Origin: a virus | Lineage: Duplodnaviria; Caudoviricetes | IMG/VR virus record: IMGVR_UViG_2690315653_000003 | Location: 12,181 to 76,180 of that record | DNA length: 64,000 nucleotides | Reading direction: 5' to 3' (one strand) | In this document: one piece after another, positions 37,701-64,000 of the stretch | Position numbering within the stretch: position 1 is the first letter of the stretch | Layout of the letters: each line of letters opens with the position of its first letter | Notes under the pieces: generated by a model | Database searches by the model: none | Seen by the model: only the letters and a program-made list of their open reading frames with translations | Told to the model about the DNA's origin: nothing | Program-made: the position numbers and the translations under genes

Positions 37701-39215
37701 CGGCTGGCAAAAAAAGTAAATGAATTTTTTAAGTCGGACCTGATGCCTGTCTCCAGTGAAGAGGAAATTACCATTTCCGGGAAGAAAATGATCCGAGCAA
37801 CAAATCGTTTCTTTCAGATGAAAGTGCTGGGTCTCAACCTGGCTACTGCTTTAACTAACTATCTGGGAGGTAAAGCCAATGCCTATATGCTCGCTGGAAA
37901 GTATTTCACAAAATCCGATTATACAAAAGGAGCGTTACAGCTGGCCAGTGCGAAATTTCATACTGAAGAAGGGAAAATACATGCCGGCCTGCTGAACTAT
38001 TTTCTTCCCCTGACAGAAGATCGTACTGGTGAGCAGATTAAACAGCTTTCTGTTTCCAAAGCCGTCAAACTGCTCTCCAGTGATCATTTGTTTTATCTGA
38101 TGCGAACATCTGATAAAGGAGTCCAATATCCAGCAGCCCTGGCCATGTTTAGTAATACGATGGTTAACGATGGTAAGCTGGTAAATATTCGTCAGCACGT
38201 AAAAGACCTCAATAATTACGGGAGTATTTATAGCTTAAGTGGCCCTGATCAGCAGGCGCTCCGTGCAAAAATTGAAACAGAGATTGAGCAGTTAAAAAAT
38301 ACAAAATCTTTGCCTGTAGTTGCAAAAATCGAGAATGATAAAATTGTACTGGATGGCATTACCCGAAACTCCAAAACAGTAGCGGATCTACGCAATAATA
38401 TTCAGCAGTTTAGCAAGGATGCTTTGGGCAACATGAGCGAGGACGATATTTCCCAATACCGTATGACGCTTTTAGGGCAGTCATTTATGATGTTTAAAAA
38501 CTGGATACCCAGGATGGCCGATGTCAGATTCGGTGAATTCCGCTACCAGATTGGTACTGATAGCTATGAATGGGGTAGGGTAGCTATGCTTTTTAATGCA
38601 CTAAGGCATGGAATACTTACAGGTGCCAAAGCTTCTATAGCATCACTTGCTGGTAAAAACGAAGGTCTTATTGATATTGCCAGAAAAGTTTACCTGGAGA
38701 AAAAGCGTCAGGCGGAAGCTACCGGCAGACCATTCAAAATGACGGAGGCTGATTTTGTTGATATGTATGTTAAGGGTATCCGTACCCAGCTCAAAGAAGT
38801 AGGACTAATGATGTCTATGCTGGGAATGCTAATGTTTGCCAAATCAGAAGTTCCAGATGACGATGATGACAGGACGACAGGCGTTTATAAATGGCTTACC
38901 AGAACACTTGATAAAATGACAGATGAATTGGGATTTTTCTTAAATCCGCTTTCTTTTACGGCCATTGCCAATGGTAGTGTTTTCCCATCAGTGCAGCTTA
39001 TTAATGATATTGTCAGGTTTACCAGCGGAATGACAATGGAATCCTATTTCCTACTCATTGGAGATGAAAAGGGCGCTGAAAAGAACAAGGTTATGAAATA
39101 CCTGTTTAAAACATTTCCGGTATCAAAAGAGCTGATGACCTATGTTGCTATGTTTAATGAAGATCTGGCCAGGGAGTATGGTATTACTATAACTTCCCGT
39201 GCAAGAATAAGATAA
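22758..39215 (+). CDS. giant virion-packaged DNA-dependent RNA polymerase polyprotein
   Basis: 5485 aa; 'GFRIPTQ' followed by catalytic 'GSDFDIDK' (DFDIDK at 31914-31931); 'YVDVAKDP'; zincin-like and PD-(D/E)xK domains. Confidence 0.92.
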   Translation: MIDKNVLQGSSDLSLLQSNYVNGDPTTDYANSVLNKYKPSTKASTGLTPFSGGTTPATQVPTGSDGARYPYYSPFVPSNEDLYASYQSWYSKAGNGIMKGAGLAGTTFLNGTAGLIVGIGSAVSDGKMSSFYDNEFTRSLDDINKYMEDRLPNYYTTKEQNADWYSPSNLFTANFLFDKVIKNLGFSVGAIGAGLTYGAALRSLGLFSKVASAGGLARAAELSEQMASAVPQMQQGAAATNSIRVAAGEFLSGFNTLNTAQRAVVSGLSTIGEANFEALLQLNDYRRELISNYVTENGVRPTGKDLDQINQYAEKAGNTIFALNVPLLTATNYIQLPKILGSSYQAEKSIFSSGVRNASAVAFDKEAGKFTSTIAQKGFGKMLNRAKNVAGLFFAPSEAFEELSQTSFNFGVENYYNKARQGKDTDFFSDLLGEGYRQGITTKEGLESALIGGLSGGIFELRHQIKERGFTGYGGSQAATNKAAINLFNNKLFSGFLSDTRDAVDRGGIIQMQRMEAIRRGDFLEAKELQTDFTLNYLAPRIKYGRFDLVKDDISTYRQLASTPEGLRQLKDQGIIADDTTSEQLLSRISNMETHADNVNHLYQSLNIRYSGQKDKDGKRIYPDEVIDKMVYAAAKVSDYDMRVPALSSSLIDASINVQPILDEMAQSDHPSEATIRPAIEQIKNLNILADKKDDIRADLRDLVELTMRRKQFLKEYDSLKNKPEEYITKKYGPVVTQNGDTEIIIPQVDQDGKSYDYKVKTGSKYGTSTTYQRNGNAFVVNPELNIVETNPLGEIRTTLPDGQTKFLFPAEMSGYKLSDPLTEIEAQVLESKMNDAIDQTVKLPAFDHLEQEMKNKTLAEKLDIINFLDDKQLADELEKAFGIINSDFENTRKSIQKLTEDPVVSTQVDKGFAEADGLAGTTQTTDPAEDKEIIDQVNEDQGAKKHITTLFRSSTSENSAISGVGENDDFHRRANKLLNNIDDITDKENIRVAVVTFANQKQLGLEGLIPDKVPGSTTSSADINEGIIRLVFIRSTSAGDYFVDQGGNNMEKVGTKPDFNKLVYTTMPSTSLTWKNYELRYISTGKRASTPAQAGTYQDAYRIKRTSLLSRATGYEVFPFSVSKGFASYDKTGNSYAVTESLVPTRELSNKLLIIPTQQTEEVNGKKAGSIIHNDQTIYLPLGRPILQRGATLVPLNNRKLTGKEKQVIKKLIVKLADGASKGTVDKAILNYFQGLLYWKKPSDTKAATKGQIWYSKGYLYLGSSTNKTPFLPQLLSSSPQLEKFLDDVYVSANNFLLTQRFSQPFNEIVDIDSQDNPVQVQWKSYQHFLLSGSYITTVDDTSGLAGTARATDQIPFTTDIAPVAATSDKYAATFQGRYVTLQNFDIFPHTATQQAGTTTSATVTPLAQQSPPPGESITPVAETADFEPIIKAGDFVLDGVTLNLISFEGKKLASVAATFSAEGVQFTDYKHLRKKALTEDFKASVLQIATVQINQAVLAEIEKRTSAAEQLTVSPESNAPSPAVAPIAQTADLNATEATNTGPQAESNVSGKTAEEIFKNLRPNRSGNDIAGGQYRIISHLPSSRENIPAFKDYLSKVLPAVPLRVVDNLISTTDGGYAWGVFRDNAIYLYEGAEIGTGYHEAFEAVYGMFLSSRQQQEIIKEFKKRSGSFIDRVSSNQVSYNKATDHQAKEQIAEEFREFNLSGTLPERPAADGFFKRLLNFIKSVLLGKAASMREIFSRINEGYYSRMTPPYANRVSAEQYSRFIPGLNTRFIQQVMEGMTSMVFEELFSENRSLVEFDEYHLSVSDLYKKVYDRMQVYFDTSLPEGLLADIEDAKLDQKEAEKTIALYTDFYNKTWLPISNNWQKLLQINESFLKPFNLIFETDLNQEELEAAINNPGKNQRDYERDILKISARKNAASSIKLLFATLTQVEDDGYNSAKQDVLIAPAKKLSSIKLPQLVNYARTFNRMLYEVVGSISPSDMISKIKGLARKDKTYIRLYNRLKTGTGYDNLSLYDWKLLIKLYSVSAKQRPDFFIQIQDEGGRTYLAGANENRQTSQVISSWLNNLKANAGNDKLIYVDTNRYRVNPKKLAPFTEAVKQPSGKISFLNSLGIDFTSQAYDLLSDKDKRKFNDATQRLFNQLLKTADIATLSGRSLGITGALTKLAEVYVKANGESAESQHFNIDGEPVQNLLLHNYVSTILNDLNYYPTKSDLVNALPHLSDSFSTGSLLLENGGVLFDDDGNRRPDPINISIIEGMKPVGPRAGTSTEKLSLSGRRLQEFNQNLNGIYYVLLPADSRTEWSLNLDKFHYIPYSDLSNPGVLSNKVFRIFGGYLQAEMELVSKFKDRSHIKNIRKQGTDLRFFKGILGQDLHAKAIAAINTGYDHKTWISDNRTAIGQQIKEWFDKREDELFNYFRDYEVIKPENENLYTFSGLDSDFKDDNKIPEKLTEAEIRSIIRFRTLNYSIQNTEFHKIFFGDPALYSDPTKRIKSFLSGRETTYHSDPYFNTFANNRLNATSLSDDRIMLKLSDPGYWEFKDYMVTATVADIEIVGSLALDHSIPENLRAAYENANEADAQSWITLPAYRELLLKSGGRWTDAMERQYQYEMAYERLGRSKTNGFSYENRGDLRKHDEDLVKKGNPQSGIFHVIKPIGTGVKAGAAFADIFLDKTSAMPIYYRMSEGRGLGKLYGKMSAAGISYAIMESGRKVGAEFLNPVYQTNGDFNPEPFSGNVNVPFKYFGIQLETAGTKHKQTRGTQLTKLAIINLLASGIPQDISMDAAAWNKLSETEKIQLSPSYKLISANIAILKAMADKGYQQVLDQLGISETENGFHIADKKLVAAFISREAEARDLPDNFKSAIGIDAETGDFKISLEAISNYRAVKSIIYSIVDKKLLSPKMPGGPKVQVSSALFERNNRQAVYKPAGAKTANWERVTDFDKLTDQEKSSVRLTSSDLKFYTRDAPYIEVYMPHWFREKLLERGSGKTDQELIDYLNSKGSDLLTGIGFRIPTQELNSVEHIKIKGFLPQEMGDTIIVPSEIVLKAGSDFDIDKLNTYLKNFYIGKNGFPEPISFVHADTQTDEGLKVLYNHIFGTTENILRIAHRQLAEQAERGQLKAQNKIGFSEEHSRLIESVFSSLAEQLKEAGINEKSYQRAIEKYIPFDKFSSMVSGKNIYQIYSMFDSAALENEYIRTLQQLLSLPENFERLIQPNSADELVALRGELNQALGIGAEETKGNFSLLLDPFYMSQTRHNFLSGKDGVGIAALQQTNTALSQLAGIVLDHRNFNNKLSNAEKSVVKNITVQLPHNTVSVDGEEFISISAIKDTIGKYISDKISSYINGYVDVAKDPFIIELGASLNVASTYMFLEKIGVPTRDVIFFMNQPIIKDYLRLLSIKGFNTVFSEKTIRYINQAKGLYPTGKVAVGAIDTSNLKTFIEKKSRGKKFSDIENGIQQQILDEFLKYSVFSGHLFKLTQGSNYDTDYFSDASLVFRKQTFTRQAREGNLFNSIDKLLDKSFIGTIAQYLGKVKSALGEIFLFDRPSTMQGFEQILSYYLPKDGAVSEDDFLTIASKLQSSFLDFITQLASENSLNTKIQDLLLGQDAVAAELVAFKKAIPAGSDLSENTILKLLEPVYDDASTIEPQNVKLTEKAYDSYTSNLYTEAMRELRDNVHSAGLYKRLILLSLVQSGSRRSPISFTDIIPVEDYAPIVTRALENLSKGNFIRDFVSSFAFQRVHYWDERVVPTVEPKEISTYYGSFTPLYEVPTRLYKNLSIVDGSYQFIQLSTHFQSRESNYPVVKIRQIAINPVTKAPYTPVEQAQMRKNGDYSFFSIKLFQKVMMEDTNGNDVALSYDDDQVKRPGAKFYIYKQINAWGKPGLVLEYYDHPRVSVLPSNQKIDEFSDAQVIGAFQNRDEKMLQLNDSNVDTTIPSKAGKQTLDKVYNFLEKIGVQIKDVNQIVVNGKRIDASAVADILNKTIQVVNGKHDTALPEEAMHFAVELVQQSNPQFFKGLLRDIGKFRLYNDILSLYGNEPLYQKDGKPDILKLKKEAIARVLVEVIINKSEGINEKPELLAQVGSWWERIISFLKNLFSKGPLNLFETAAGNILNGQFSDEPITGQNEVFFQLNKDTHQSQLSDKLLNLHSQLSKEVSATNGQDSYYVIGGKRVSERVTNLSKLYYERKFRNKQISETELQKAINDQKKEKGTDGHADLEDIFHRMIGDDGFLRNEELLQTIPSRLSPTDNSFYRTLENNMRERLRSFKAGTRFFSELMIYDEEKDMAGTIDFLAIEPDNADGTPGKIHILDWKFVNLKEQATDIPFYKKEAWNIQISEYLKMLSRPVYGAVKDNFGMTRAIPIKALYSFEDNERTKLKLFGVEIGNVNVKAITDDTLLPVPTKYESTGNKDLDKLIFALNSLHEKIFDTRSDPGAEYLKNQRLNDITTAIRRLQMKKETETLFKFAKNDIYNFNAFFRKYFELLDSGKQELNATDVNELSGKILDAEDVLTLYKDFNVTFRKIFSYKDAESKPILQESEMISDDAELVLSRIITLANNLRVNSIARGLEVEDVLEPEKVVTWYQKWVRSLSQGATKATEILWEIVKNINTRIQIEFSEEIEKLISLEKKVSEWLRTSGLSFKELQDMIFQKDAKGRWNGKVISTTSPEFYAEMTDALTKKNASWVMGNIDLEAYNKWYKEEMDLRKKNFETSRLHEDEKEDAALKIARLQDFKKHFDIMDNPDTAISLANYKLKAYPDLNIWKSKEFARLHEPHNEPVLALYNFWIAKLEESYKLGMLKSWERKTFFPNVRKDFLDKIVFGAESGVVKSANLNFLNSVRIDNNDEVFGYTDINGNPQDKLSSLYHYDLGEKILDKDGELFSDYANKSTDIFKVMALWEKEIIKYRHKSEVVDTVRLLHFTEKNRQAISRSKRTGGIAIKEDGEPVLIDNVENTEYFKNYMDYYFYGKRLSEGQDVTFQFKYNRLAKKVNEFFKSDLMPVSSEEEITISGKKMIRATNRFFQMKVLGLNLATALTNYLGGKANAYMLAGKYFTKSDYTKGALQLASAKFHTEEGKIHAGLLNYFLPLTEDRTGEQIKQLSVSKAVKLLSSDHLFYLMRTSDKGVQYPAALAMFSNTMVNDGKLVNIRQHVKDLNNYGSIYSLSGPDQQALRAKIETEIEQLKNTKSLPVVAKIENDKIVLDGITRNSKTVADLRNNIQQFSKDALGNMSEDDISQYRMTLLGQSFMMFKNWIPRMADVRFGEFRYQIGTDSYEWGRVAMLFNALRHGILTGAKASIASLAGKNEGLIDIARKVYLEKKRQAEATGRPFKMTEADFVDMYVKGIRTQLKEVGLMMSMLGMLMFAKSEVPDDDDDRTTGVYKWLTRTLDKMTDELGFFLNPLSFTAIANGSVFPSVQLINDIVRFTSGMTMESYFLLIGDEKGAEKNKVMKYLFKTFPVSKELMTYVAMFNEDLAREYGITITSRARIR

Positions 39216-43616: not shown

Positions 43617-44297
43617 TCATGACAGATATTTTCCTGGTCTCATTGAAAAGTTGATCTCCTTTTCCAAATCGGCTATAATCCTGTATGCTTCTGGATCATA
43701 CTGTTTTACTTCAGATAAATCATGATCGTTCATAAAAATACATATCCTACAGCTGAACCTGCGAAGATGCCTGTAGATAGGATGAAGGGGTATATTCCTT
43801 TTTTCCAGGTAATCAAGTACTTCCATTTCATTCCAGTGATGAATCGGAAGCCAGTCCCAAACAGTTCTTTTGCTATTGGTTAAAGCTTTATTTCTTTTCA
43901 GAGGATTTAATTTGCCTCTTGACCTGCTTTCCTGAGCTCTCATTCCCATACAATTGATTATTGTAGTGGACTTTATATTCCTGCGAATCCATGTCTGTAT
44001 AGGGCCTCTTTTTAAGTCTGAGGTGCATTGCCTGGTTGTCGCTGATGGGAATTTTCGACGCTTTCGGATCATAGATAAAAAGGTTTTATTTTCATTACGA
44101 CAAACATCCAGCTGCAAACCCATTAATGCCACAATTTTCTTGCACCACTCTACCGCATCTTTATGCTCCCAGCCAGTATCGGCCATAATAATTCTCTTTT
44201 TTACTTGAGGGTAGTGCTCACAAAGATAGGCCAGCATTGCAGAGGAGTCTTTTCCTCCTGAGAAATTGATAACTAATTCAATATTTTGATGTTTCAT
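43617..44297 (-). CDS. PAPS-reductase-family (PP-loop) protein
   Basis: 'FSGGKDS', 'DTGWE', 'R.CT..LK..P', 'G.RA.ES..R', 'PI..W', 'R.SC..C'. Confidence 0.9.
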   Translation of the reverse strand: MKHQNIELVINFSGGKDSSAMLAYLCEHYPQVKKRIIMADTGWEHKDAVEWCKKIVALMGLQLDVCRNENKTFLSMIRKRRKFPSATTRQCTSDLKRGPIQTWIRRNIKSTTIINCMGMRAQESRSRGKLNPLKRNKALTNSKRTVWDWLPIHHWNEMEVLDYLEKRNIPLHPIYRHLRRFSCRICIFMNDHDLSEVKQYDPEAYRIIADLEKEINFSMRPGKYLS

Positions 44298-45484: not shown

Positions 45485-46456
45485 TTATTTGAGGTTTATT
45501 ACTTTGGCTTCCACCTCCCTATAAAGCTCCTCATTATCTTCAAGGAGTTTTCGCAGCGAATCTTCTCCCTGGCCCAACTGCGATCCTGCATAAGAATACC
45601 AGCTTCCGGATTTTTGGATGATATCGGCCTCGACAGCCAGGGCTATCACTTCTCTTATCCGGCTGATACCTTTTCCCCATTCCAGGTAAACCAAAGCTTC
45701 CTTAAAGGGAGCTGCCATTTTGTTTTTTATAATCTTTACTTTGATTTTATTTCCCCCGCCATCCTTATCCATCTGCGATCTTCTCATATCGATCCTAACA
45801 GATGAATAGAATTTAAGCGCTTCCCCTCCAGATCCAGTCTCCGGTGACCCATATAGTACGCCAACTTTTATACGTATCTGATTTATGAAAATGATAAGAG
45901 TGCCTGTTTTCTCTGCTATCGGAACAAGCATCCTGAGCGCCTGTGACATCATCCATGCCTGTCTGCCAATATTACTGTCGCCAACTTCTCCTTCCAGTTC
46001 TTTTTTAGGAACTAGGGCAGACACAGAATCGACAACTATTACTCCCAGTCGGCCAGATTCAGTTAAAGTTTTAACAATATTTAATGCCTGCTCCCCATAA
46101 TCGGGCTGACTAATAAATAAGGTATTAATATCCACGCCCAGGCTTTTTGCATAATTTGTATCCAGTGCGTGTTCCATATCTATATAGGCAGCAGATAGCC
46201 CCATACTTTGGGCGCAGGCAACAGTTTGCAGACACACCGTTGTCTTGCCAGCACTTTCCGGTGCTAATATTTCGACAATTCTTCCCCGGGGTAAACCATT
46301 AATGCCTATTGCCTGATCAATTAATAAACTGCCGGTACTGACAACCGGAACAATAGCTCCTTTTTCATTGGCAGTAATAATGGTGCCTTTGCCATATGTT
46401 TTATTAATCCTTAACATCACTTCCTGCAGCGCAGGGCCTTTCTCTTCAGAAATCAT
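45485..46456 (-). CDS. recA: RecA recombinase
   Basis: 'STGSL..D.A.G..GLPRGRIVEI.APESAGKTT', 'IDMEHALD', 'SQPDYGEQAL', 'VVDSV.ALVP..E', 'IFINQIR', 'GGEALKFYSSVR', 'KNK.A.PF'. Confidence 0.97.
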   Translation of the reverse strand: MISEEKGPALQEVMLRINKTYGKGTIITANEKGAIVPVVSTGSLLIDQAIGINGLPRGRIVEILAPESAGKTTVCLQTVACAQSMGLSAAYIDMEHALDTNYAKSLGVDINTLFISQPDYGEQALNIVKTLTESGRLGVIVVDSVSALVPKKELEGEVGDSNIGRQAWMMSQALRMLVPIAEKTGTLIIFINQIRIKVGVLYGSPETGSGGEALKFYSSVRIDMRRSQMDKDGGGNKIKVKIIKNKMAAPFKEALVYLEWGKGISRIREVIALAVEADIIQKSGSWYSYAGSQLGQGEDSLRKLLEDNEELYREVEAKVINLK

Positions 46457-49760: not shown

Positions 49761-50396
49761 CTACTCTATAACCTGGGAGATTAAAACGTTTTCTATTACA
49801 TCGGTCGTAAACTTTTCAATGTATTCCTTACGCTCTTCCATTGTGGAGAAATAAGGGACTTTCAAATGAACAAAGGACTCATATTCAGGGTTTTTTGTAA
49901 AGTGAAGGTTTATGGTTTGACCTTTGTATAGTTTTCTGAATTTAGCATACAACGTTTTAAACTCTTTCTGTTTCTCAAATTTATTGCTGATTACAAGCGT
50001 AAAATGTTTGGATATGTGATCTGGTAACAGTTCAGTGAACTCCATATAAAAATGATAGAATTCTTCAGTAACAGTGAGCATTGCAAGGATATTAAACTCG
50101 CTATCCATGATGATGCCTTTGCCGACATAATAAACTCTGTTTCTAATTGGAATTTTAATGATTTCAGATCCGTCCTGAAAAATCTGAATGACAATATCAG
50201 TATCAAATAATCTCTTGTAGCCATTTGGGCCGCTAGGAAGCGTTAAGTATCCCAGTGATGTAAAACATAGAATAAAGGGTATTCTATTGCCCGCAGAAGC
50301 AATGAATTTGCATGAATTTGAAATTGTCTGATCTGGAACCAAACTGATAGTTCTTTCACCTATCCGAATTGTTGATAGAAAATTTTGGTTCACCAT
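49761..50396 (-). CDS. hypothetical protein directly downstream of the E1 gene
   Basis: 211 aa; 'YYVGKGIIMD..FNIL'; 11 nt after the ThiF gene stop. Confidence 0.6.
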   Translation of the reverse strand: MVNQNFLSTIRIGERTISLVPDQTISNSCKFIASAGNRIPFILCFTSLGYLTLPSGPNGYKRLFDTDIVIQIFQDGSEIIKIPIRNRVYYVGKGIIMDSEFNILAMLTVTEEFYHFYMEFTELLPDHISKHFTLVISNKFEKQKEFKTLYAKFRKLYKGQTINLHFTKNPEYESFVHLKVPYFSTMEERKEYIEKFTTDVIENVLISQVIE

Positions 50397-50407
50397 GACT
50401 TTAATAT

Positions 50408-51154
50408 TTAATATTCTATGTCATACTTATCAAGTGGAATAAGGAATTCGTAACTAAAAGGGACGTTACGAATTATCTTACCTTTTTTTACATTGGACAA
50501 CCAGTTCGTGATATAAAATATCATGTGTGCAGCGATTCCAGCTGCGGTAGGTGTTGTTTGAGTGTAGGTACATGAAGGCGTATCCGATTCATCAGGTTTT
50601 TCCAGACAATTATTGTAATATTTCTCCATTAGATCTGGCCTATCACCTGGTACGTTGTAGATCCACATTTGTTCTGCAAGCAATCTTCCGTCTTGAAAGA
50701 AGAACTCGCTGCGTTCGTGCTCAGGCGTTCTGTTCACATATGCAGCCCACTTTTCGAATGCGAGTCTTCTTACCTCTATTTTATCCGGGCCACAAAGCAC
50801 AATTTTTGATGTTTCACTGGTACGGGTATACTCTCCATGTGTCTCTATTTCGCAATCCGGGCTAAAGGAACTGATTGTATTTTTTATGGCCTCTACCTTT
50901 TTTTGCCCTACATTAGTGTCAAACATAACCTGGCCACCATTATGGTCCTCGAAAATATCCTTATCGTATACATGAAGACGTACTCCTGTTCTGGAGAGTA
51001 GTAATGACAACCAGGACCCAATCCCCCCCTGACCTATTATGACGATATCCCTTTTGTAGATAGCGTCAAACCAAAAGGCACCTTTAGACCTTCCATATAT
51101 GGCAGGGGTGATCATTTTTTCACTTTCTGTTAATACATTATTTTCATTTGTCAT
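50408..51154 (-). CDS. E1/ThiF-family adenylating enzyme
   Basis: 'IIGQGGIGSW' (GxGGxG), 'YDKD.FE.HN', 'K..A', 'GPD....R', 'DGRL', single Cys in 'TPSCTY'. Confidence 0.9.
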   Translation of the reverse strand: MTNENNVLTESEKMITPAIYGRSKGAFWFDAIYKRDIVIIGQGGIGSWLSLLLSRTGVRLHVYDKDIFEDHNGGQVMFDTNVGQKKVEAIKNTISSFSPDCEIETHGEYTRTSETSKIVLCGPDKIEVRRLAFEKWAAYVNRTPEHERSEFFFQDGRLLAEQMWIYNVPGDRPDLMEKYYNNCLEKPDESDTPSCTYTQTTPTAAGIAAHMIFYITNWLSNVKKGKIIRNVPFSYEFLIPLDKYDIEY

Positions 51155-52077
51155 TTTTTGTCGTTTTGTCGATAAGTGGTAAATAGGTGACTATTTTCTT
51201 TTTTTCCTTTGGATATGTCCTTAGCCGCTTTGGAAACAACCTTTTTAGGTGCCCGTGTTTTTGATTTTGGCTTTTTCTCAGCGATATTTCCTTCTGGGAA
51301 TAATTGAAGTTTTTTTAATGCTTTGGCCTTACGAGGTTTTGGTGCCGTGGGTAATGATGGTAAAACAGGTTCCCTAGTTAGTTCAAAACAACGAGACCTG
51401 AAATCCTCGTCGATTTGACTTTCGTGGTGAACAATATTACATTCATATATACCTATAATCTCCTCTTCTGAATTGGTGTCGCTCATCACTTTAGTTGAAT
51501 GCACTCCATTATTACCCAGGTAATTTAAAGTTGAATTTGATGTTGTTTTTTGGGTTGCAAAAACGCTCATCTTACCAATAATGTCATAGCTGTTATTTAC
51601 AATAATTGATAAATAGTAATTATGATTTGGCGCATTTATATGTATATCCTTTTTGTCAGTATCGGAAAAGAATACCGGCATATTGTTATGGGAGTGAATC
51701 ATGCCTTGTCTACAATATCTGTTTAAAGGATTATCATCCAGGTACGTAGCAAGTTTTCCAGTGAAAACTGGTGCAGTCATCACTGAGGAGCCCATATCCA
51801 TTAGAAGTACGTCTTCTAACACGCACTTGAAGTTTTTTTCTCCGAAATCTCCTATTGTCCTATAGAATAGAACTGCGCTCCATTCCAGATCCTGTATCTC
51901 AGAACATAGAAATCGGACTTTATCCATAAAATGACTAGGCACATATACCGGAATTGATTGGGAGAAGAGAATTTCGTTGTAACGCGTAACTATTGAATCT
52001 GTCAGAAAGTTGGGTGTTAATAAATCTGGTGAATTCTGGGTCGGGATATTTCCGAATTTCATTGCTTGCGTTTTCAT
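51151..52077 (-). CDS. JAB/JAMM metallo-isopeptidase (start uncertain)
   Basis: 'EWSAVLFY' Glu plus exact HxH-x7-S-x2-D (HSHNNMPVFFSDTD); alternative starts are GTG 51942 or ATG 51927; Lys-rich C-terminal tail. Confidence 0.85.
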   Translation of the reverse strand: MKTQAMKFGNIPTQNSPDLLTPNFLTDSIVTRYNEILFSQSIPVYVPSHFMDKVRFLCSEIQDLEWSAVLFYRTIGDFGEKNFKCVLEDVLLMDMGSSVMTAPVFTGKLATYLDDNPLNRYCRQGMIHSHNNMPVFFSDTDKKDIHINAPNHNYYLSIIVNNSYDIIGKMSVFATQKTTSNSTLNYLGNNGVHSTKVMSDTNSEEEIIGIYECNIVHHESQIDEDFRSRCFELTREPVLPSLPTAPKPRKAKALKKLQLFPEGNIAEKKPKSKTRAPKKVVSKAAKDISKGKKENSHLFTTYRQNDKK

Positions 52078-53107
52078 AATCAACAATTTTGAAATTTATT
52101 GGTTTGTTTTGAAAATAAAGTATTGGTTCGGTCATCTTATATTGGGTCGTATCGATTTCAAACGGAGAAATACGGATTAGTTTACCCTGATGGTTTTTTA
52201 CCGCGTAACATTGCAAAGGAAGATTCATACGCTCCATTACAGTAACTATTTCTTTTTGTCCACGATCAGTTAGCTCAACATCGAATTTGTCTTCAATGAT
52301 TTTTACAGAGAACATATCTCTGATCACTTGTGGTCGAAGGGAACTCAAATGGAAGAGGAAATGATTGCAAATTATTGGAATTTGTTCTGCCGGGAAATCT
52401 TCTGCAGGACCAGAGGTTGTGTGCTCAGAAACTCCAATTTCAGAAATGTAGCGATATGGAACGCCTGAAATAGATTCCCATTTGACCAGCTCTTTTATAT
52501 GCAAGCAAAATAGCTCCATTCCATCCTCATAAAATCTGTGCTTAAGCTGAAGAATAACATCTAAAATAGATCCCGTTCCCAAACAAAAATGTCCATCGTA
52601 ATTCTCTCGGTAATCTACTCTCGGAAGGTGAGAATGTGCATAGTTATACTTGAGTTCATCTACGGTAACTGTGGAACGGATACCATTTAAAAAGGAATCA
52701 TCGACACTGAACAAACATCCTTGGAAGTTAATATTAAAGCTTACGAATAGATCTCGTATTATATGAGAAGCATCATGCTCATTTTTTATTTCAACTTCTG
52801 GAAAACGTATGACTACTTCATAAAATAGGTATTTATCTACCACCTCCAGGAGGTGTTCAATATTGGTGTCATCCGGATTATTTTCATCGCCGTCGGGTCC
52901 TAAAGAGATACCTAAGTAATTTAATGCAAGATCAATAGCCTGTGACTCATTTATATTGACTATTTCATTATTAAGCTCGCCAAAATGAGTGTTTAATATT
53001 TTCTTTATTTGATTAAGTATTCCGCTTTCACCAGTAATCCTTCGCCCTTCTTTGGCCTTTAGATAAACTGCCCGGCGAAGCATCGCAGCTTTTGAAATTT
53101 CAGCCAT
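51935..53107 (-). CDS. prokaryotic E2-like (UBC-fold) protein
   Basis: 'HSHLP...GHFCLGTG' parallels the E2 HPN...G.ICL catalytic-Cys motif; sits between the Ubl and JAB genes. Confidence 0.6.
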   Translation of the reverse strand: MAEISKAAMLRRAVYLKAKEGRRITGESGILNQIKKILNTHFGELNNEIVNINESQAIDLALNYLGISLGPDGDENNPDDTNIEHLLEVVDKYLFYEVVIRFPEVEIKNEHDASHIIRDLFVSFNINFQGCLFSVDDSFLNGIRSTVTVDELKYNYAHSHLPRVDYRENYDGHFCLGTGSILDVILQLKHRFYEDGMELFCLHIKELVKWESISGVPYRYISEIGVSEHTTSGPAEDFPAEQIPIICNHFLFHLSSLRPQVIRDMFSVKIIEDKFDVELTDRGQKEIVTVMERMNLPLQCYAVKNHQGKLIRISPFEIDTTQYKMTEPILYFQNKPINFKIVDYENASNEIRKYPDPEFTRFINTQLSDRFNSYALQRNSLLPINSGICA

Positions 53108-53122
53108 TTCAATTGGTTTTTG

Positions 53123-53157
53123 AAAAAGGAGAAGTGAATAATATCTCTTCTCCTTTT
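53123..53157 (-). terminator. intrinsic terminator between the Ubl and E2-like genes
   Basis: AAAAGGAGAAG...CTTCTCCTTTT inverted repeat; TTTTT follows the stem on the - strand. Confidence 0.7.
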
Positions 53158-53170
53158 ATTTACTGGAATT

Positions 53171-53413
53171 TTATTTCCTTCCTAATTCGGATTTCTGTTG
53201 AACGATATAGACAACGATATTTCCGGTAGGCAGTATCGTTGATGGGTCAACAAGAGGCTTAGAGTGACCTCTCAGCACGATACTCATTCCTTCATACCTG
53301 ACTCCTCGTTCTTCAAAGACCTGCTGGACTTCTTTAAGGGTCTCTCCTTCGAATTCGTCGATTTCAATTTCATCAACTCCCCTGGTGTTAAATACTGTCA
53401 ATGATCTGGTCAT
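53171..53413 (-). CDS. ubiquitin-like (beta-grasp) protein
   Basis: 80 aa; beta-beta-alpha pattern 'RSLTVFNT..EIEI...ETLKEVQQVFEERGV.Y.GM', 'L.....LP.GN.VVY', C-terminus SELGRK; first gene of the E2-JAB-E1 cluster. Confidence 0.7.
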   Translation of the reverse strand: MTRSLTVFNTRGVDEIEIDEFEGETLKEVQQVFEERGVRYEGMSIVLRGHSKPLVDPSTILPTGNIVVYIVQQKSELGRK

Positions 53414-62086: not shown

Positions 62087-64000
62087 CTATAGATCAACCT
62101 GTGGTGGAATGATTTTTTCATTGTATTGACTAGCCAACATACGGAGCCATTCGTTGGCAAATTGAGTAAGGTATACTGATACACCACTAAAAGCCTTTAC
62201 AATTTTATTATCCTTGAATACAATTGCAAATTCTTTTCTGGCAGGATGATGTATTAGTTTACATACATAAACTTTTGGAGACCTGTTTTTAATTCGTCCT
62301 ACAGTTGAATCGTGAACTACGTAGAATTCCATTTCACATGCCGGCACCCAAATACTGCCATTTGAAAATCCTTCACTGAACTTATAAAGTGTTCCTATTC
62401 CCAGATGAGATTCAATATTACTACTGATGCACATGATATTAATGTGAAAAGAATTCTCAGACGGTATAACAATCATTGATTTATCTTCCAGCGTGCCTAA
62501 AAACTGTTTGATGATATTTATACTATCAGCAGTAAGTGAAGGGAGAAGTAATTTATTCGCTTCTTTGGCGGGTATTGGGCTACCATCTATAAATGCAGAT
62601 CTTCTGGCAAACGGAACAACGACATTTTTAAGATCTTCCCTACGCCTTTCCTCCTCATTGAAGGCATAAATCTCTGTTGTAGAGTCATATTCATGACTAT
62701 TCTGTTCCTTGGCGTGCTGTAGGGATAGTGTTTTTGCTATTCTGTCACTATAAAGATGCTTGAGCTTATACATGTCCTTATCGATACCCAATTCCTTTTT
62801 TACATATTTCTTCCACCGCCGCCCAAATTGGTCTGGTCTGATGGAGTAAAATTGGGGTTTCATGAATTTGCTAAATATAAATACTTCACCGGTCTTTTCT
62901 GGTACTCCGCATTTAGTTGCATATTCCTGGCAATCCGATAATATTTCTTTCCAGATATGGAGTGTATGGATGGGAATCGGTTTTATTACCTCCCGGTGGA
63001 TCTTTCCTTTCAATACCCATACGGTAAACTGCCTTTTCTTTATATCCACGTTGCCTACCTTTACTAAGGCCAGCTCGGTCTCTCTACTGCCAGATGCGTA
63101 GAAAACTATCACATATCGCCAGAAATGATAGTAATTGGCCTTTAAATATTCATCAATGGTGATAATCTCCTCTTCTTCCAGAACCCGTGGTAAGGGCTCA
63201 TCTTCCGGAAGAATCGGAATTTCCAGGATAAAATTTGATTTTACGACTCTGGCTAGTGCCAGTTCCTTAAACAATGAAAGCAGAAAAGACCTATACTTAT
63301 TACGTGACTTTGGTGAAAATTTGGGATTGATCTTGGCGATAACCTCAAAGCTTAAGGTAATATGTTGTGGAGTTATTCTGCTGATAGGTGTTTGAAGATA
63401 TTCTAAGAGGAATGCTGCACGATTCATCGCCCGGATGGCGCCTCGTACACTGCTCAGGTGTCCTGGAACTCCCTTTATTTTGCGATATGCTTTCCAAAGC
63501 GCATCAATAAAAGGCAGATCTGGGGTCAGGATATGAATAGTTATTTTATCGGAGCTTATTTCCTCCTTCAACTTCTGGGCTTTTTCGGTTTCTAGTGCGA
63601 CTTTATTTGCTACAGCGAGGAGCTGTGGTGAAATATCGATCTGAGTTTTAGTGACAACATCATGAAATGGATCATGTGCCTGTTCTTTTGGTTGTTGGTT
63701 ATAATATTCATTTGGTTTTAGGGTTTGTTTGGTGATAGGGTTATATCCACTTTCGAGCTTTTCTTTAATATTTTTTAGTGCCTTTCTAACCAGCTTTCTT
63801 CGCTCATCGAGTGTTTTTGCCCCGGCAAAGCCTTTCTTAAAATTGCACCGTTTTCCTCTTGGGAGTGTACTTTTAAAACTGGGATCAAAGAACCAATATT
63901 CAATGTACCATTCGGTGTCTAAAAATGCGTCTGGCAGATCCCAATCGAAGGGATTGACGTATGGCTTGGTGTAGCTACATCCATTTGGAAGTTCAATCAT
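62087..64000 (-). CDS. tyrosine recombinase/integrase (Bacteroidota type) with C-terminal extension
   Basis: N-terminal 'WYIEY...DP....R...K.G.....ERR.......L..GYNP'; catalytic R (GSRETEL), K (KGK), YKLKH, H (NSHE), Y (TEIYA). Confidence 0.9.
   Translation of the reverse strand: MIELPNGCSYTKPYVNPFDWDLPDAFLDTEWYIEYWFFDPSFKSTLPRGKRCNFKKGFAGAKTLDERRKLVRKALKNIKEKLESGYNPITKQTLKPNEYYNQQPKEQAHDPFHDVVTKTQIDISPQLLAVANKVALETEKAQKLKEEISSDKITIHILTPDLPFIDALWKAYRKIKGVPGHLSSVRGAIRAMNRAAFLLEYLQTPISRITPQHITLSFEVIAKINPKFSPKSRNKYRSFLLSLFKELALARVVKSNFILEIPILPEDEPLPRVLEEEEIITIDEYLKANYYHFWRYVIVFYASGSRETELALVKVGNVDIKKRQFTVWVLKGKIHREVIKPIPIHTLHIWKEILSDCQEYATKCGVPEKTGEVFIFSKFMKPQFYSIRPDQFGRRWKKYVKKELGIDKDMYKLKHLYSDRIAKTLSLQHAKEQNSHEYDSTTEIYAFNEEERRREDLKNVVVPFARRSAFIDGSPIPAKEANKLLLPSLTADSINIIKQFLGTLEDKSMIVIPSENSFHINIMCISSNIESHLGIGTLYKFSEGFSNGSIWVPACEMEFYVVHDSTVGRIKNRSPKVYVCKLIHHPARKEFAIVFKDNKIVKAFSGVSVYLTQFANEWLRMLASQYNEKIIPPQVDL

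What the first reader, a model, noticed from the sequence alone, without database searches (positions are those of the whole stretch)
50408..53413. Complete phage-encoded ubiquitin-like conjugation cassette: Ubl, E2, JAB, E1
Seen: four contiguous co-oriented genes encode an 80-aa beta-grasp-like protein, a protein with HSH...FCLG (E2-like catalytic Cys), a JAMM protease with exact E...HxH-x7-S-x2-D, and a ThiF/E1 with GxGGxG and one candidate catalytic Cys (PSC) but no Zn-binding CxxC pairs. Established: E1+E2+JAB+Ubl is the minimal ubiquitination machinery, and bacteria use it in antiphage systems (CBASS Cap2/Cap3, Bil). Inference: here the phage carries it inside its replication/recombination block with no thiamine or molybdopterin genes, so it probably conjugates Ubl to phage or host proteins (host takeover, replisome control, or countering host Ubl-type defence). 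ThiF genes are known in crAss-like genomes, so the open question is function and targets, not mere presence.
Basis: partly seen in the sequence, partly recalled or inferred. Interest (0 to 1): 0.92.

Follow-up and report, generated by a model that had tools for sequence, protein, structure and literature searches.

The report
Prophage ubiquitin-like tagging gene cassette
A crAss-like prophage carries four adjacent genes that look like a small ubiquitin-style protein-tagging kit, and the same kit sits beside the primase gene in a large group of crAss-like phages, where it has so far been labelled only as thiamine synthesis or unknown.

Summary
Four co-oriented minus-strand genes (53413-50408) encode:
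- an 80-aa protein with a family-invariant Gly78 followed by Arg-Lys;
- a 390-aa protein with invariant H-S-H and Cys175;
- a peptidase with the full JAMM motif;
- a 248-aa ThiF/E1 with invariant Cys195.

How well each assignment is supported:
- E1: secure (Pfam 56 bits; UBA5 5.5e-13).
- JAMM: rests on a complete, family-invariant motif.
- Ubl: rests on ThiS/SAMP2-like structural neighbours of an Atlas model, plus the invariant Gly before tails of 1-217 aa.

The cassette is not a one-off:
- 84 IMG/VR loci keep primase>Ubl>E2-like>JAB>E1, and every absence lies at a contig end.
- The E2-like family has 3146 cluster representatives.
- phiCrAss001 (Gp79-76) and Flavobacterium FpV4 carry it, annotated "hypothetical", "metalloprotease" and "thiamine biosynthesis".
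- My paper searches found no description of it as a conjugation system.

The element is an integrated prophage.

Best reading (about 0.55): JAMM-matured Ubl is activated by E1 and passed to a new UBC-fold enzyme. Targets are unknown. I rate it a new variant of a known kind, interest 0.74.

The parts
53171..53413 (-). Pro-Ubl, 80 aa. Beta-grasp-like domain of residues 1-78 ending in Gly78 (codon 53180-53182), followed by Arg-Lys and the stop codon.
   Evidence: ORF. Gly78 is invariant in 71 of 71 trimmed homologues. Tails after the Gly range from 1 to 217 aa. The Atlas model's structural neighbours are ThiS (TM 0.64/0.73), SAMP2/ThiS (0.60/0.67) and an RBD. The window protein has no Pfam hit.
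53108..53170 (-). Spacer between the Ubl and E2-like genes, holding a hairpin followed by a U-run.
   Evidence: strand folding gave -19.5 kcal/mol, z -2.38, with an 11-pair stem followed by UUUUU. The simple terminator scan did not list it.
52403..53050 (-). UBC/RWD-like core of the 390-aa protein (residues about 20-235). It includes H158-S159-H160 (52628-52636) and Cys175 (52583-52585).
51935..52402 (-). C-terminal domain of the 390-aa protein (residues about 236-390), possibly winged-helix-like.
51151..52086 (-). JAMM/JAB metallopeptidase, 311 aa from TTG 52086 (alternative ATG starts at 52077 and 52062). E68 is at 51883-51885 and H131..D144 at 51655-51696. The C-terminal tail (about residues 240-311) is Lys-rich.
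   Evidence: Motif read. E, H, H, S and D are invariant in 41 sequences. Pfam Prok-JAB scored only 15.5 bits against a cut-off of 25. The profile search of the PDB gave weak hits to JAMM1 (E 0.025) and CSN5 (E 0.04-0.34) on the motif region. The phiCrAss001 homologue Gp77 is annotated as containing a metalloprotease domain.
50408..51154 (-). ThiF/E1-type adenylation enzyme, 248 aa. GxGGxG lies at 51017-51034 and the invariant Cys195 at 50570-50572.
   Evidence: Pfam ThiF 56.1 bits, E 4e-15. The PDB profile search gave UBA5 5.5e-13, then MccB, PaaA, ThiF, UBA6 and Cap2. Invariant residues are R22, G41, G43, G44, D64, D66, N72, G74, Q75, K86, D124, R129, D155, R157 and C195.
49761..50396 (-). 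Conserved downstream neighbour of unknown function (211 aa); a possible accessory component.
   Evidence: A homologue follows the E1 gene in 65 of 84 viral loci. It has no Pfam or PHROG hit.

Best explanation
The four genes form a prophage-borne ubiquitin-like activation and transfer module.

Proposed steps, all inferred:
1. The 80-aa product is a pro-Ubl. The JAMM peptidase removes what follows the invariant Gly78. That is Arg-Lys here, and a domain of 100-217 aa in most relatives.
2. The 248-aa ThiF-type E1 adenylates the freed Gly carboxylate, and may hold it on the invariant Cys195.
3. The Ubl passes to the invariant Cys175 of the 390-aa UBC-fold protein, or possibly to the invariant Ser159 as an oxyester, as in Bub. 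The neighbouring H-S-H takes the place of the E2 HPN motif.
4. The Ubl is then attached to target proteins, perhaps chosen by the C-terminal domain of the 390-aa protein.
5. The JAMM enzyme may also reverse the tag.

What is shown: the sequence features, their conservation, the predicted fold resemblance and the gene linkage. No biochemical step is shown.

The module sits in the replication and recombination block, directly after the primase gene in relatives. This points to a role during phage DNA replication or host takeover. The targets are unknown.
For: E1:
- Pfam ThiF 56 bits.
- Profile hits to UBA5 5.5e-13, ThiF, UBA6/UBA1, Cap2 and MoeB. The alignment runs from the Rossmann motif to the D-N-x-x-x-R motif.
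- 25 invariant columns including Cys195.

JAMM:
- Complete E...HxH-x7-S-x2-D motif, invariant in 41 sequences.
- 12 of the 20 weak PDB rows are JAMM1 or CSN5, all on the motif region.

Ubl:
- Gly78 invariant in 71 of 71 sequences.
- Tails after it vary from 1 to 217 aa, as expected if the Gly is the functional C-terminus.
- ThiS, SAMP2 and RBD clusters are the structural neighbours of the Atlas model.
- Sub-threshold hits are all to beta-grasp families: ThiS, DUF348, DIX and DWNN.

E2-like protein:
- Deep-alignment AF2 model with pLDDT 83.7.
- The strand-strand-strand, loop with HSH...Cys, then helices order matches E2 topology.

Linkage:
- In 84 IMG/VR loci the order primase>Ubl>E2-like>JAB>E1 is kept.
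- All missing genes fall at contig ends. One Ubl was missed by jackhmmer but seen by eye.
- The same phage records hold the E2-like gene (72 records) and the E1 (74 records).

Precedent:
- In Type I Bub operons a JAB domain cuts a Ubl-E2 fusion at a conserved Gly before E1/E2 action. I read sections 5 and 9 of 10.1101/2024.11.21.623953.
Against: - The E2 assignment has no sequence support. There was no Pfam, NCBIfam, PADLOC or PDB sequence hit. hhalign against 7 Cap2 E2 domains gave probability 0.1. Foldseek on the PDB found nothing at E<=0.001.
- I could not see the model coordinates. So the position of Cys175 relative to an E2 active site is untested. H158, H160, Cys175 and the 94%-conserved Cys201 could instead bind a metal.
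- The E1 has Gly74 where PaaA and UBA5 have the Arg of the N-x-x-R-Q motif (alignments). It also lacks a separate Cys domain and a UFD.
- The Ubl ends in Ser/Leu-Gly, not Gly-Gly.
- The Atlas model of the Ubl is only moderate (pLDDT 0.66).
- A PAPS-reductase-like gene lies at 43617-44297.
- There are no expression or biochemical data.
Confidence: 0.55

Rival explanations
1. Conjugation or activation happens without a true E2. The Ubl, JAMM and E1 work as in archaeal SAMP/UbaA-type systems, where E1 alone suffices. The 390-aa protein is then a non-catalytic UBC/UEV/RWD-like adaptor, or a His/Cys metal-binding protein that recruits targets or DNA.
For: - There is no sequence-level link to E2 families.
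- H158, H160, C175 (invariant) and C201 (94%) are typical metal ligands.
- The C-terminal domain weakly resembles DNA-binding winged-helix domains.
Against: - An invariant Cys in the loop between the last sheet strand and the following helix, about 15 residues after an invariant His motif, is the E2 arrangement.
- Non-catalytic UEV/RWD domains are not expected to keep such invariant polar residues. This point is inference.
Confidence: 0.17
2. The module is a sulfur-carrier pathway. JAMM trims the Ubl, E1 adenylates it, and it is converted to a thiocarboxylate, as for QbsE, CysO or TtuB. This donates sulfur for a nucleic-acid or metabolite modification. Here that could involve the PAPS-reductase-like PP-loop protein.
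For: - Ubl+JAB+E1 clusters together with PAPS reductase are a known sulfur-assimilation neighbourhood (passages of PMC1779556).
- A PAPS_reduct gene (80 bits) lies at 43617-44297 in the same minus-strand block.
- A two-residue cap after the Gly resembles capped sulfur carriers. That comparison is from recall.
- GenBank annotators call the E1 'thiamine biosynthesis protein'.
Against: - Nothing found in the neighbours scanned (no rhodanese, cysteine desulfurase or thiamine/Moco gene).
- The PAPS-reductase-like gene does not travel with the cassette. Its 133 phage records are mostly Salmonella, Burkholderia and others. By the organism tallies, none is a Flavobacterium FpV-type or B. intestinalis crAss001-type record.
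- The family ends in Ser-Gly, not the Gly-Gly of ThiS/MoaD.
- A UBC-fold partner is always present.
- Most Ubls carry tails of 100-217 aa.
Confidence: 0.1
3. The E1 acts as a peptide or protein C-terminus modifying enzyme of the MccB/PaaA type, or the Ubl-JAMM pair acts as a cleavable assembly or delivery tag like lambda TAPI/TAPK. The real product would be a modified or released protein, namely the tail domain, rather than a conjugate.
For: - PaaA is the best single-sequence PDB hit of the E1 (3.8e-07). MccB and PaaA rank just behind UBA5 with the profile.
- 75 of 79 Ubls are fused to large tails. One group carries a ribosomal L7/L12 C-terminal domain (2.9e-12).
- Phage TAPI (a Ubl with a C-terminal domain after a Gly) plus a JAB-containing TAPK is an established phage pairing without E1 or E2 (passages of PMC1779556).
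Against: - The window's own Ubl has no cargo: its tail is Arg-Lys. L005 has a one-residue tail. Yet both keep the whole cassette.
- MccB/PaaA substrates are short peptides, not beta-grasp proteins. That point is from knowledge.
- This reading does not explain the invariant UBC-fold partner.
Confidence: 0.08

Closest known systems
Bil (BilABCD) antiphage ubiquitination-like operons
   Same: It has the same four roles in separate genes: Ubl, E2, JAB/JAMM peptidase and E1. No E3 is present, and the E2 is proposed to pick the targets. This is as described in section 5 of 10.1101/2024.11.21.623953.
   Different: [quoted passage not shown] Here the E1 is a single 248-aa adenylation domain.
- PADLOC models matched only the Rossmann part of the E1, and only via Cap2-type E1-E2 models.
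- The carrier is a phage or prophage replication module, not a host defence island.
- The E2-like protein belongs to no known E2 family by sequence.
Bub (6E/DUF6527) operons, Type I
   Same: - A JAB domain cleaves a Ubl precursor at a conserved single Gly before activation.
- The E1 is compact and has no Cys domain.
- The E2 active site uses a Ser-x-His pair (BubB S333/H335). The phage protein has an invariant H-S-H.
   Different: - Bub fuses Ubl to E2 and JAB to E1, and adds the BubE serine protease. Here the four genes are separate, and no DUF6527 hit was seen among the neighbours scanned.
- The phage protein also keeps an invariant Cys175.
CBASS Cap2/Cap3
   Same: - It combines E1 and E2 chemistry with a JAB peptidase in a minimal prokaryotic system.
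- Cap2 E1 appears among the E1 profile hits (1.1e-07).
   Different: - Cap2 is an E2-E1 fusion whose substrate is a CD-NTase, not a Ubl. There is no CD-NTase here.
- hhalign of the phage family against 7 Cap2 E2 domains gave probability 0.1.
Lambda/T1 tail assembly proteins TAPI (Ubl) and TAPK (JAB)
   Same: It is a phage-encoded beta-grasp domain with a conserved C-terminal Gly, followed by a further domain. It is paired with a JAB peptidase that is predicted to cut at that Gly (passages of PMC1779556).
   Different: - It has no E1 and no E2.
- It lies in the tail module, not the replication module.
phiCrAss001 Gp79-Gp76 and Flavobacterium phage FpV4 gp53-gp50
   Same: - These are true homologues in the same order.
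- FpV4 shares the window's order primase>UDG>Ubl>E2-like>JAB>ThiF.
   Different: - They are annotated as hypothetical, 'metalloprotease domain' and 'thiamine biosynthesis protein ThiF'.
- Their proteins are longer: Gp79 is 225 aa with a 135-aa tail after the Gly, and Gp76 is 383 aa.
- Identity to the window proteins is about 25-35%.

Membership tests
ThiF/E1 adenylation domain (PF00899) | Score over the Pfam gathering cut-off, with a Rossmann GxGxxG nucleotide loop. | tested here: met
   56.1 bits against a cut-off of 28.1. G41, G43, G44 and G46 are invariant or nearly invariant.
ThiF/E1 adenylation domain (PF00899) | Acidic residue and Arg of the D-N-x-x-x-R motif (Mg/ATP site). | tested here: met
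   The profile alignment to UBA5 runs to this motif. D124 and R129 are invariant.
ThiF/E1 adenylation domain (PF00899) | Arg of the N-x-x-R-Q phosphate-binding motif. | tested here: not met
   Gly74 is invariant where PaaA and UBA5 have Arg (alignments). The role of that Arg is recalled, not tested.
Canonical thioester-forming E1 | Catalytic Cys in the crossover loop or a Cys domain. | tested here: inconclusive
   Cys195 is invariant in 54 of 54 sequences. However, no alignment to a solved E1 reached it. There is no separate Cys domain in 248 aa.
JAMM/JAB metallopeptidase | E...HxH-x7-S-x2-D metal and catalytic motif. | tested here: met
   E68, H131, H133, S141 and D144 are invariant in 41 sequences.
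JAMM/JAB metallopeptidase | Significant match to a curated JAB model or a solved JAMM protein. | tested here: inconclusive
   Prok-JAB scored 15.5 bits against a cut-off of 25. JAMM1 scored E 0.025 and CSN5 E 0.04-0.34 with the family profile.
E2/UBC superfamily | UBC fold. | tested here: inconclusive
E2/UBC superfamily | HPN motif followed by a catalytic Cys. | tested here: inconclusive
   There is no HPN. An invariant H-S-H is followed 15 residues later by the invariant Cys175. Structural equivalence could not be checked because coordinates are not shown.
Known E2 sequence families (UQ_con, Prok-E2_A-E) | Sequence or profile similarity. | tested here: not met
   No Pfam family at E<=1. hhalign against Cap2 (Prok-E2_B) domains gave probability 0.1. 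Other Prok-E2 families were not compared profile to profile.
Ubiquitin-like beta-grasp modifiers (ThiS/MoaD/Ub) | Beta-grasp fold. | tested here: inconclusive
   The Atlas model (pLDDT 0.66) has ThiS (TM 0.64/0.73) and SAMP2 (0.60/0.67) clusters as neighbours. No Pfam hit for the window protein. I could not fold it myself.
Ubiquitin-like beta-grasp modifiers (ThiS/MoaD/Ub) | Conserved C-terminal Gly (Gly-Gly in the classical families). | tested here: met
   A single Gly is invariant in 71 of 71 sequences. The residue before it is Ser in 76 of 78 relatives and Leu in the window. So the Gly-Gly form is not met.
Bil system | E1 with IAD-AAD-CYS architecture (as defined in 10.1101/2024.11.21.623953, section 5). 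| tested here: not met
   The E1 is one adenylation domain of 248 aa.
Bub system | Ubl-E2 and JAB-E1 fusions plus the DUF6527 protease. | tested here: not met
   The four genes are separate. No such family appeared among the neighbours scanned with Pfam. No fused E2-like form of 787 aa or more was found (weak evidence).

The most novel reading that the evidence does not exclude
A large clade of crAss-like phages, including the cultured phiCrAss001 and FpV4, encodes its own complete ubiquitination-like system as a fixed part of the replication module.
- It is built around a previously unrecognised E2 family with an invariant H-S-H...Cys site.
- Its pro-Ubl is cut by a JAMM peptidase.
- In most members this cut also releases a separate cargo domain. 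In one group that domain is a ribosomal L7/L12 C-terminal domain.
- The virus would tag phage replisome or host proteins during takeover.

This would be the viral counterpart of the host Bil, Bub and CBASS systems.
Probability: 0.4. Interest if true: 0.88.

Novelty: new variant of a known kind. Interest (0 to 1): 0.74.

Why it matters
In the papers I read, prokaryotic ubiquitination-like systems (CBASS Cap2/Cap3, Bil, Bub) are described as host defences against phages. Here the same four roles sit in a phage, at a fixed place in the replication module. The group concerned includes abundant human-gut crAss-like phages and fish-pathogen phages that can be grown in the laboratory.

If the cassette conjugates its Ubl, two things follow:
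- Phages would be using ubiquitin-style tagging for their own replication or host takeover.
- It would add a new E2-like enzyme family and a minimal 248-aa E1.

It would also correct a widespread annotation ("thiamine biosynthesis protein"). The question is directly testable in phiCrAss001 (Gp79-76) and in FpV4.

Tried and rejected
- Nucleotide search. blastn of the 3-kb stretch against deposited phages found no match. The relatives are too distant at the DNA level.
- First fold. AF2 with the 14-sequence alignment A1 gave pLDDT 48.3 and was not used.
- Foldseek. The good model had no PDB match at E<=0.001. In BFVD it found only uncharacterised crAss-like relatives.
- ESM Atlas for the 390-aa protein. 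Its own model is poor (pLDDT 0.44) and the neighbours are uninformative. One row was a UQ_con cluster at TM 0.25/0.45.
- Sequence searches of the PDB. There was no hit for the 390-aa protein alone or as a profile. The Ubl profile gave only chance-level rows, including an RBBP6 DWNN domain at E 0.36.
- PADLOC. Nothing for the Ubl, E2-like protein or JAB.
- Known E2 comparison set. A search for Prok-E2_B in 301 genomes of the phylum found 3 Cap2-like genes. A word-based homologue search added 5 proteins. hhalign of the E2-like core against these 7 domains gave probability 0.1.
- Fused forms. No E2-like protein of 787-2245 aa was found. The tool calls this weak evidence.
- Genome scans. The genome-contig scan gave 5 loci, all on MAG contigs, and used a single peptide pattern that the window's own protein does not fit. 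Among 301 genomes of the host's order, 2 matched, one of them the window's own genome.
- Expression. No RNA holder was listed for this stretch.
- Prophage ends. Only a 15-base exact repeat was found, at window coordinates -26492 and 64324. This is not enough to call the att sites.
- Literature. These searches found no paper describing the cassette: crAss-like+ThiF+ubiquitin, Crassvirales+ThiF, crAss+ubiquitin-like+JAB, crAssphage+ubiquitin, crAss001+thiamine biosynthesis+metalloprotease, crAss-like+ubiquitin, Crassvirales+ubiquitin and phages+E1-like+E2-like+JAB+Ubl. The nearest was one passage in bioRxiv 10.64898/2026.03.05.709809. It notes a gut-phage protein family that structurally matches UBA5.
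- Supplements. Table S1 of the Bub preprint could list phage-borne operons that I could not see.
- Considered and rejected. I considered a thiamine or molybdopterin biosynthesis role. It lacks partner genes, a UBC-fold partner is always present, and the Ubl precursors carry large tails.

Full report
WHAT IS THERE.
On the minus strand lie four ORFs: 53171-53413 (80 aa), 51935-53107 (390 aa), 51151-52086 (311 aa from the first TTG; ATGs at codons 4 and 9) and 50408-51154 (248 aa).
- 390-aa protein: H158-S159-H160 and F-C175-L-G.
- Peptidase: E68 ... H131-S-H133-x7-S141-x2-D144.
- E1: G41-Q-G-G-I-G46 and P-S-C195, with no CxxC pair.

The genes are tightly packed rather than simply contiguous.
- The peptidase ORF overlaps the end of the 390-aa gene by 128-152 nt.
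- Homology to relatives extends upstream of the internal Met54, so the overlap is real.
- The peptidase and E1 genes overlap by 4 nt.
- A 63-nt spacer after the small gene holds a hairpin plus a U-run (-19.5 kcal/mol, z -2.38).

CONTEXT.
The window is C8:3704251-3768250 of an 8.07-Mb, 8-contig bacterial genome.
- It carries a 5485-aa ORF and other large plus-strand ORFs.
- The minus-strand block around the cassette encodes:
  - a primase (PHROG 12622) and a UDG-like protein (PHROG 12143);
  - PD-(D/E)XK nucleases and RecA (343 bits);
  - a DnaB-like helicase and a PAPS-reductase-like protein;
  - a tyrosine integrase at 62087-64000.
- A tRNA-Gln gene lies 114 bases beyond the window's end, followed by large ORFs that I did not annotate.

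So this is an integrated crAss-like prophage. No thiamine or molybdopterin gene was found among the neighbours scanned.

THE E1.
- Pfam ThiF scores 56.1 bits, E 4e-15.
- A 54-sequence family profile hits UBA5 at 5.5e-13. Behind it come MccB, PaaA, ThiF, UBA6, TcdA, UBA1, UBA3, Cap2, MoeB and SAE2. The alignment runs from the Rossmann loop to the D-N-x-x-x-R motif.
- Twenty-five columns are invariant, including R22, D64, D66, K86, D124, R129 and Cys195.
- Two departures stand out. Gly74 is invariant where PaaA and UBA5 have the Arg of N-x-x-R-Q. The protein is also a bare adenylation domain. Relatives are longer, with a median of 319 aa.
- I recall that UBA5's catalytic Cys precedes a similar helix. 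No alignment here reached Cys195, so that equivalence is untested.

THE PEPTIDASE.
- Curated models barely see it: Prok-JAB scores 15.5 bits against a cut-off of 25.
- Even so, E, H, H, S and D of the JAMM motif are invariant in 41 sequences.
- The family profile's weak PDB rows on that region are JAMM1 (E 0.025) and CSN5 (E 0.04-0.34). These make up 12 of 20 rows.

THE SMALL PROTEIN.
- No family model matches the window protein.
- In 84 viral loci a homologous ORF precedes the 390-aa gene in 82. One more was found by eye, and the last locus is cut at the contig end.
- When trimmed at the conserved Gly, 71 distinct sequences share an invariant Gly.
- The residue before the Gly is Ser in 76 of 78 relatives.
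- What follows the Gly varies from 1 to 217 residues. 75 of 79 sequences have a tail of at least 100 residues. The window has Arg-Lys.
- In one group the tail contains a ribosomal L7/L12 C-terminal domain (47 bits, 2.9e-12).
- The ESM Atlas holds the window protein (pLDDT 0.66). After its phage relatives, its structural neighbours are ThiS (TM 0.64/0.73), SAMP2/ThiS (0.60/0.67) and a Ras-binding domain. All of these are beta-grasp folds.
- An invariant Gly with a freely variable tail is what a processed Ubl precursor should look like. A JAB cutting a Ubl fusion at a conserved Gly has been shown for BubAB/BubCD (sections 5 and 9 of 10.1101/2024.11.21.623953). It was also predicted for phage TAPI/TAPK (passages of PMC1779556).

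THE 390-aa PROTEIN.
This is the crux of the finding.
- Size of the family.
  - It has no Pfam, NCBIfam, PADLOC or PDB sequence match. Its only family hit is PHROG 15310, of unknown function.
  - The family is very large. A profile search of 1.84 billion cluster representatives gave 3146 hits at E<=0.001 and 931 at E<=1e-30.
- Conserved residues. In 148 sequences N109, S159, H160, C175, G177, G179, E211, S212, G215 and P217 are invariant. H158 and Y156 are invariant in the 82 viral-locus sequences.
- Model. With the deep alignment, AF2 gave pLDDT 83.7.
- Structural searches.
  - Foldseek found nothing in the PDB.
  - About seven more rows are UBC-like by my recall (BRISC, FTS, FANCL, Knl1, VPS37A, Yih1). 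All align to model residues of about 19-225.
  - A second look at Foldseek's top 1000 chains gave the same picture, adding Atg3 and a CBASS CdnG-E2 complex.
- Topology. Helix, three long strands, a loop carrying H-S-H and Cys175, then two helices. This fits E2 topology.
- Evidence against.
  - hhalign of the core against 7 Cap2 E2 domains gave probability 0.1.
  - I could not inspect coordinates. So Cys175's position, and the alternative that H158, H160, C175 and C201 bind a metal, remain open.
- C-terminal domain. It gives only weak winged-helix or DNA-binding-type matches.

LINKAGE AND DISTRIBUTION.
- In the 84 IMG/VR loci (contigs mostly 75-117 kb) the commonest order is primase>Ubl>E2-like>JAB>E1>unknown>UDG, seen in 58 loci.
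- JAB was found in 81 loci and E1 in 77. All absences lie in loci that end at a contig edge.
- Among 50,697 deposited phage records, 72 hold the E2-like gene and 74 the E1. The organism tallies are nearly the same: Flavobacterium 29, Bacteroides 29, and 'uncultured' 10 against 12.
- They include phiCrAss001: Gp79 is the Ubl with a 135-aa tail, Gp78 the E2-like protein, Gp77 'metalloprotease domain' and Gp76 'thiamine biosynthesis protein, ThiF'.
- They also include three other Steigviridae genera whose records I opened: Kolpuevirus, Kahnovirus and Mahstovirus.
- Flavobacterium phage FpV4 shares the window's gene order.
- One record calls the E1 an 'E1 enzyme family protein'.
- The window's version is the most stripped-down form: a 2-residue tail, a 248-aa E1 and a 311-aa peptidase. 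This helps to define the core of the system.

RIVALS.
- A sulfur-carrier pathway is kept alive here by the PAPS-reductase-like gene. But that gene does not co-occur with the cassette in deposited phages. The family ends in Ser-Gly, and no sulfurtransferase was seen.
- An E1-only or adaptor model, and an MccB/PaaA-like or TAPI-like processing model, are given with their evidence in the Rival explanations section.

LITERATURE.
The eight full-text searches found no description of this cassette. One 2026 preprint notes a gut-phage protein family matching UBA5 (passage read). The two 2024 Nature papers on Bil are known to me only through citations in the texts I read. Supplements were not available.

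VERDICT.
I classify it as a new variant of a known kind: a prokaryotic Ubl-E2-JAB-E1 system, here virus-borne with a new E2-like family. It is directly testable in cultured phages.

Noticed in passing
window 1-64000 and flanks (G000:C8; L095 114-185): The crAss-like element is integrated in a 4.83-Mb bacterial contig. A tyrosine integrase (PF00589, 32 bits) lies at 62087-64000. A tRNA-Gln(CTG) gene lies 114-185 bases past the window end, followed by large ORFs that I did not annotate. A 15-base exact repeat at window coordinates -26492 and 64324 would give an element of about 90.8 kb, but it is too short to be sure.
   Followed up: partly
L035 3777-4715 (and L046, L050, L053, L059, L062 and L063, which have the same 307-312 aa form): In one group of crAss-like phages the tail after the Ubl's conserved Gly contains a ribosomal protein L7/L12 C-terminal domain (PF00542, 47.2 bits, 2.9e-12).
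   Followed up: partly
window 51935-52086: The JAB gene overlaps the 3' end of the E2-like gene by 128-152 nt in another frame. Annotated relatives also overlap: 62 nt in phiCrAss001 and cr126_1, and 125 nt in FpV4. This could mean translational coupling or a frameshift product. It was not tested.
   Followed up: no
window 53108-53170: A hairpin with an 11-pair stem followed by UUUUU lies between the Ubl and E2-like genes (z -2.38). The consensus terminator scan did not list it.
   Followed up: partly
window 43617-44297: A PAPS-reductase-domain protein (PF01507, 80 bits) sits at the end of the minus-strand block. Its relatives are in unrelated phages (133 records) and, by the organism tallies, not in the FpV-type or crAss001-type records that hold the cassette.
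   Followed up: partly
window 45485-46456: A full-length RecA (PF00154, 343 bits, plus the RecA_C domain) lies inside the prophage replication and recombination block.
   Followed up: no
window 49761-50396: A 211-aa protein with no family hit follows the E1 gene. A homologue holds that place in 65 of 84 viral loci (Gp75 position in phiCrAss001). It may be a fifth component.
   Followed up: partly
P0013 (348 aa, metagenome protein; alignment A1): The N-terminal half aligns with the E2-like core. The C-terminal half looks like the second half of the ThiF/E1 (the D-N..R, D-G-R and C..Q-T motifs). This may be a natural E2-E1 fusion, a deletion or an assembly artefact.
   Followed up: no
L049, L080, L086 and L070: In L049, L080 and L086 the JAB match is only a fragment of about 98-108 aa. 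In L049, L070 and L080 the E1 lies 1.1-1.5 kb further downstream than usual. This suggests an inserted gene (intron or homing element?) in or after the JAB gene.
   Followed up: no
window 22758-39215: A single 5485-aa ORF on the plus strand, flanked by further ORFs of 883-1543 aa. Giant virion proteins are typical of crAss-like phages (recall).
   Followed up: no
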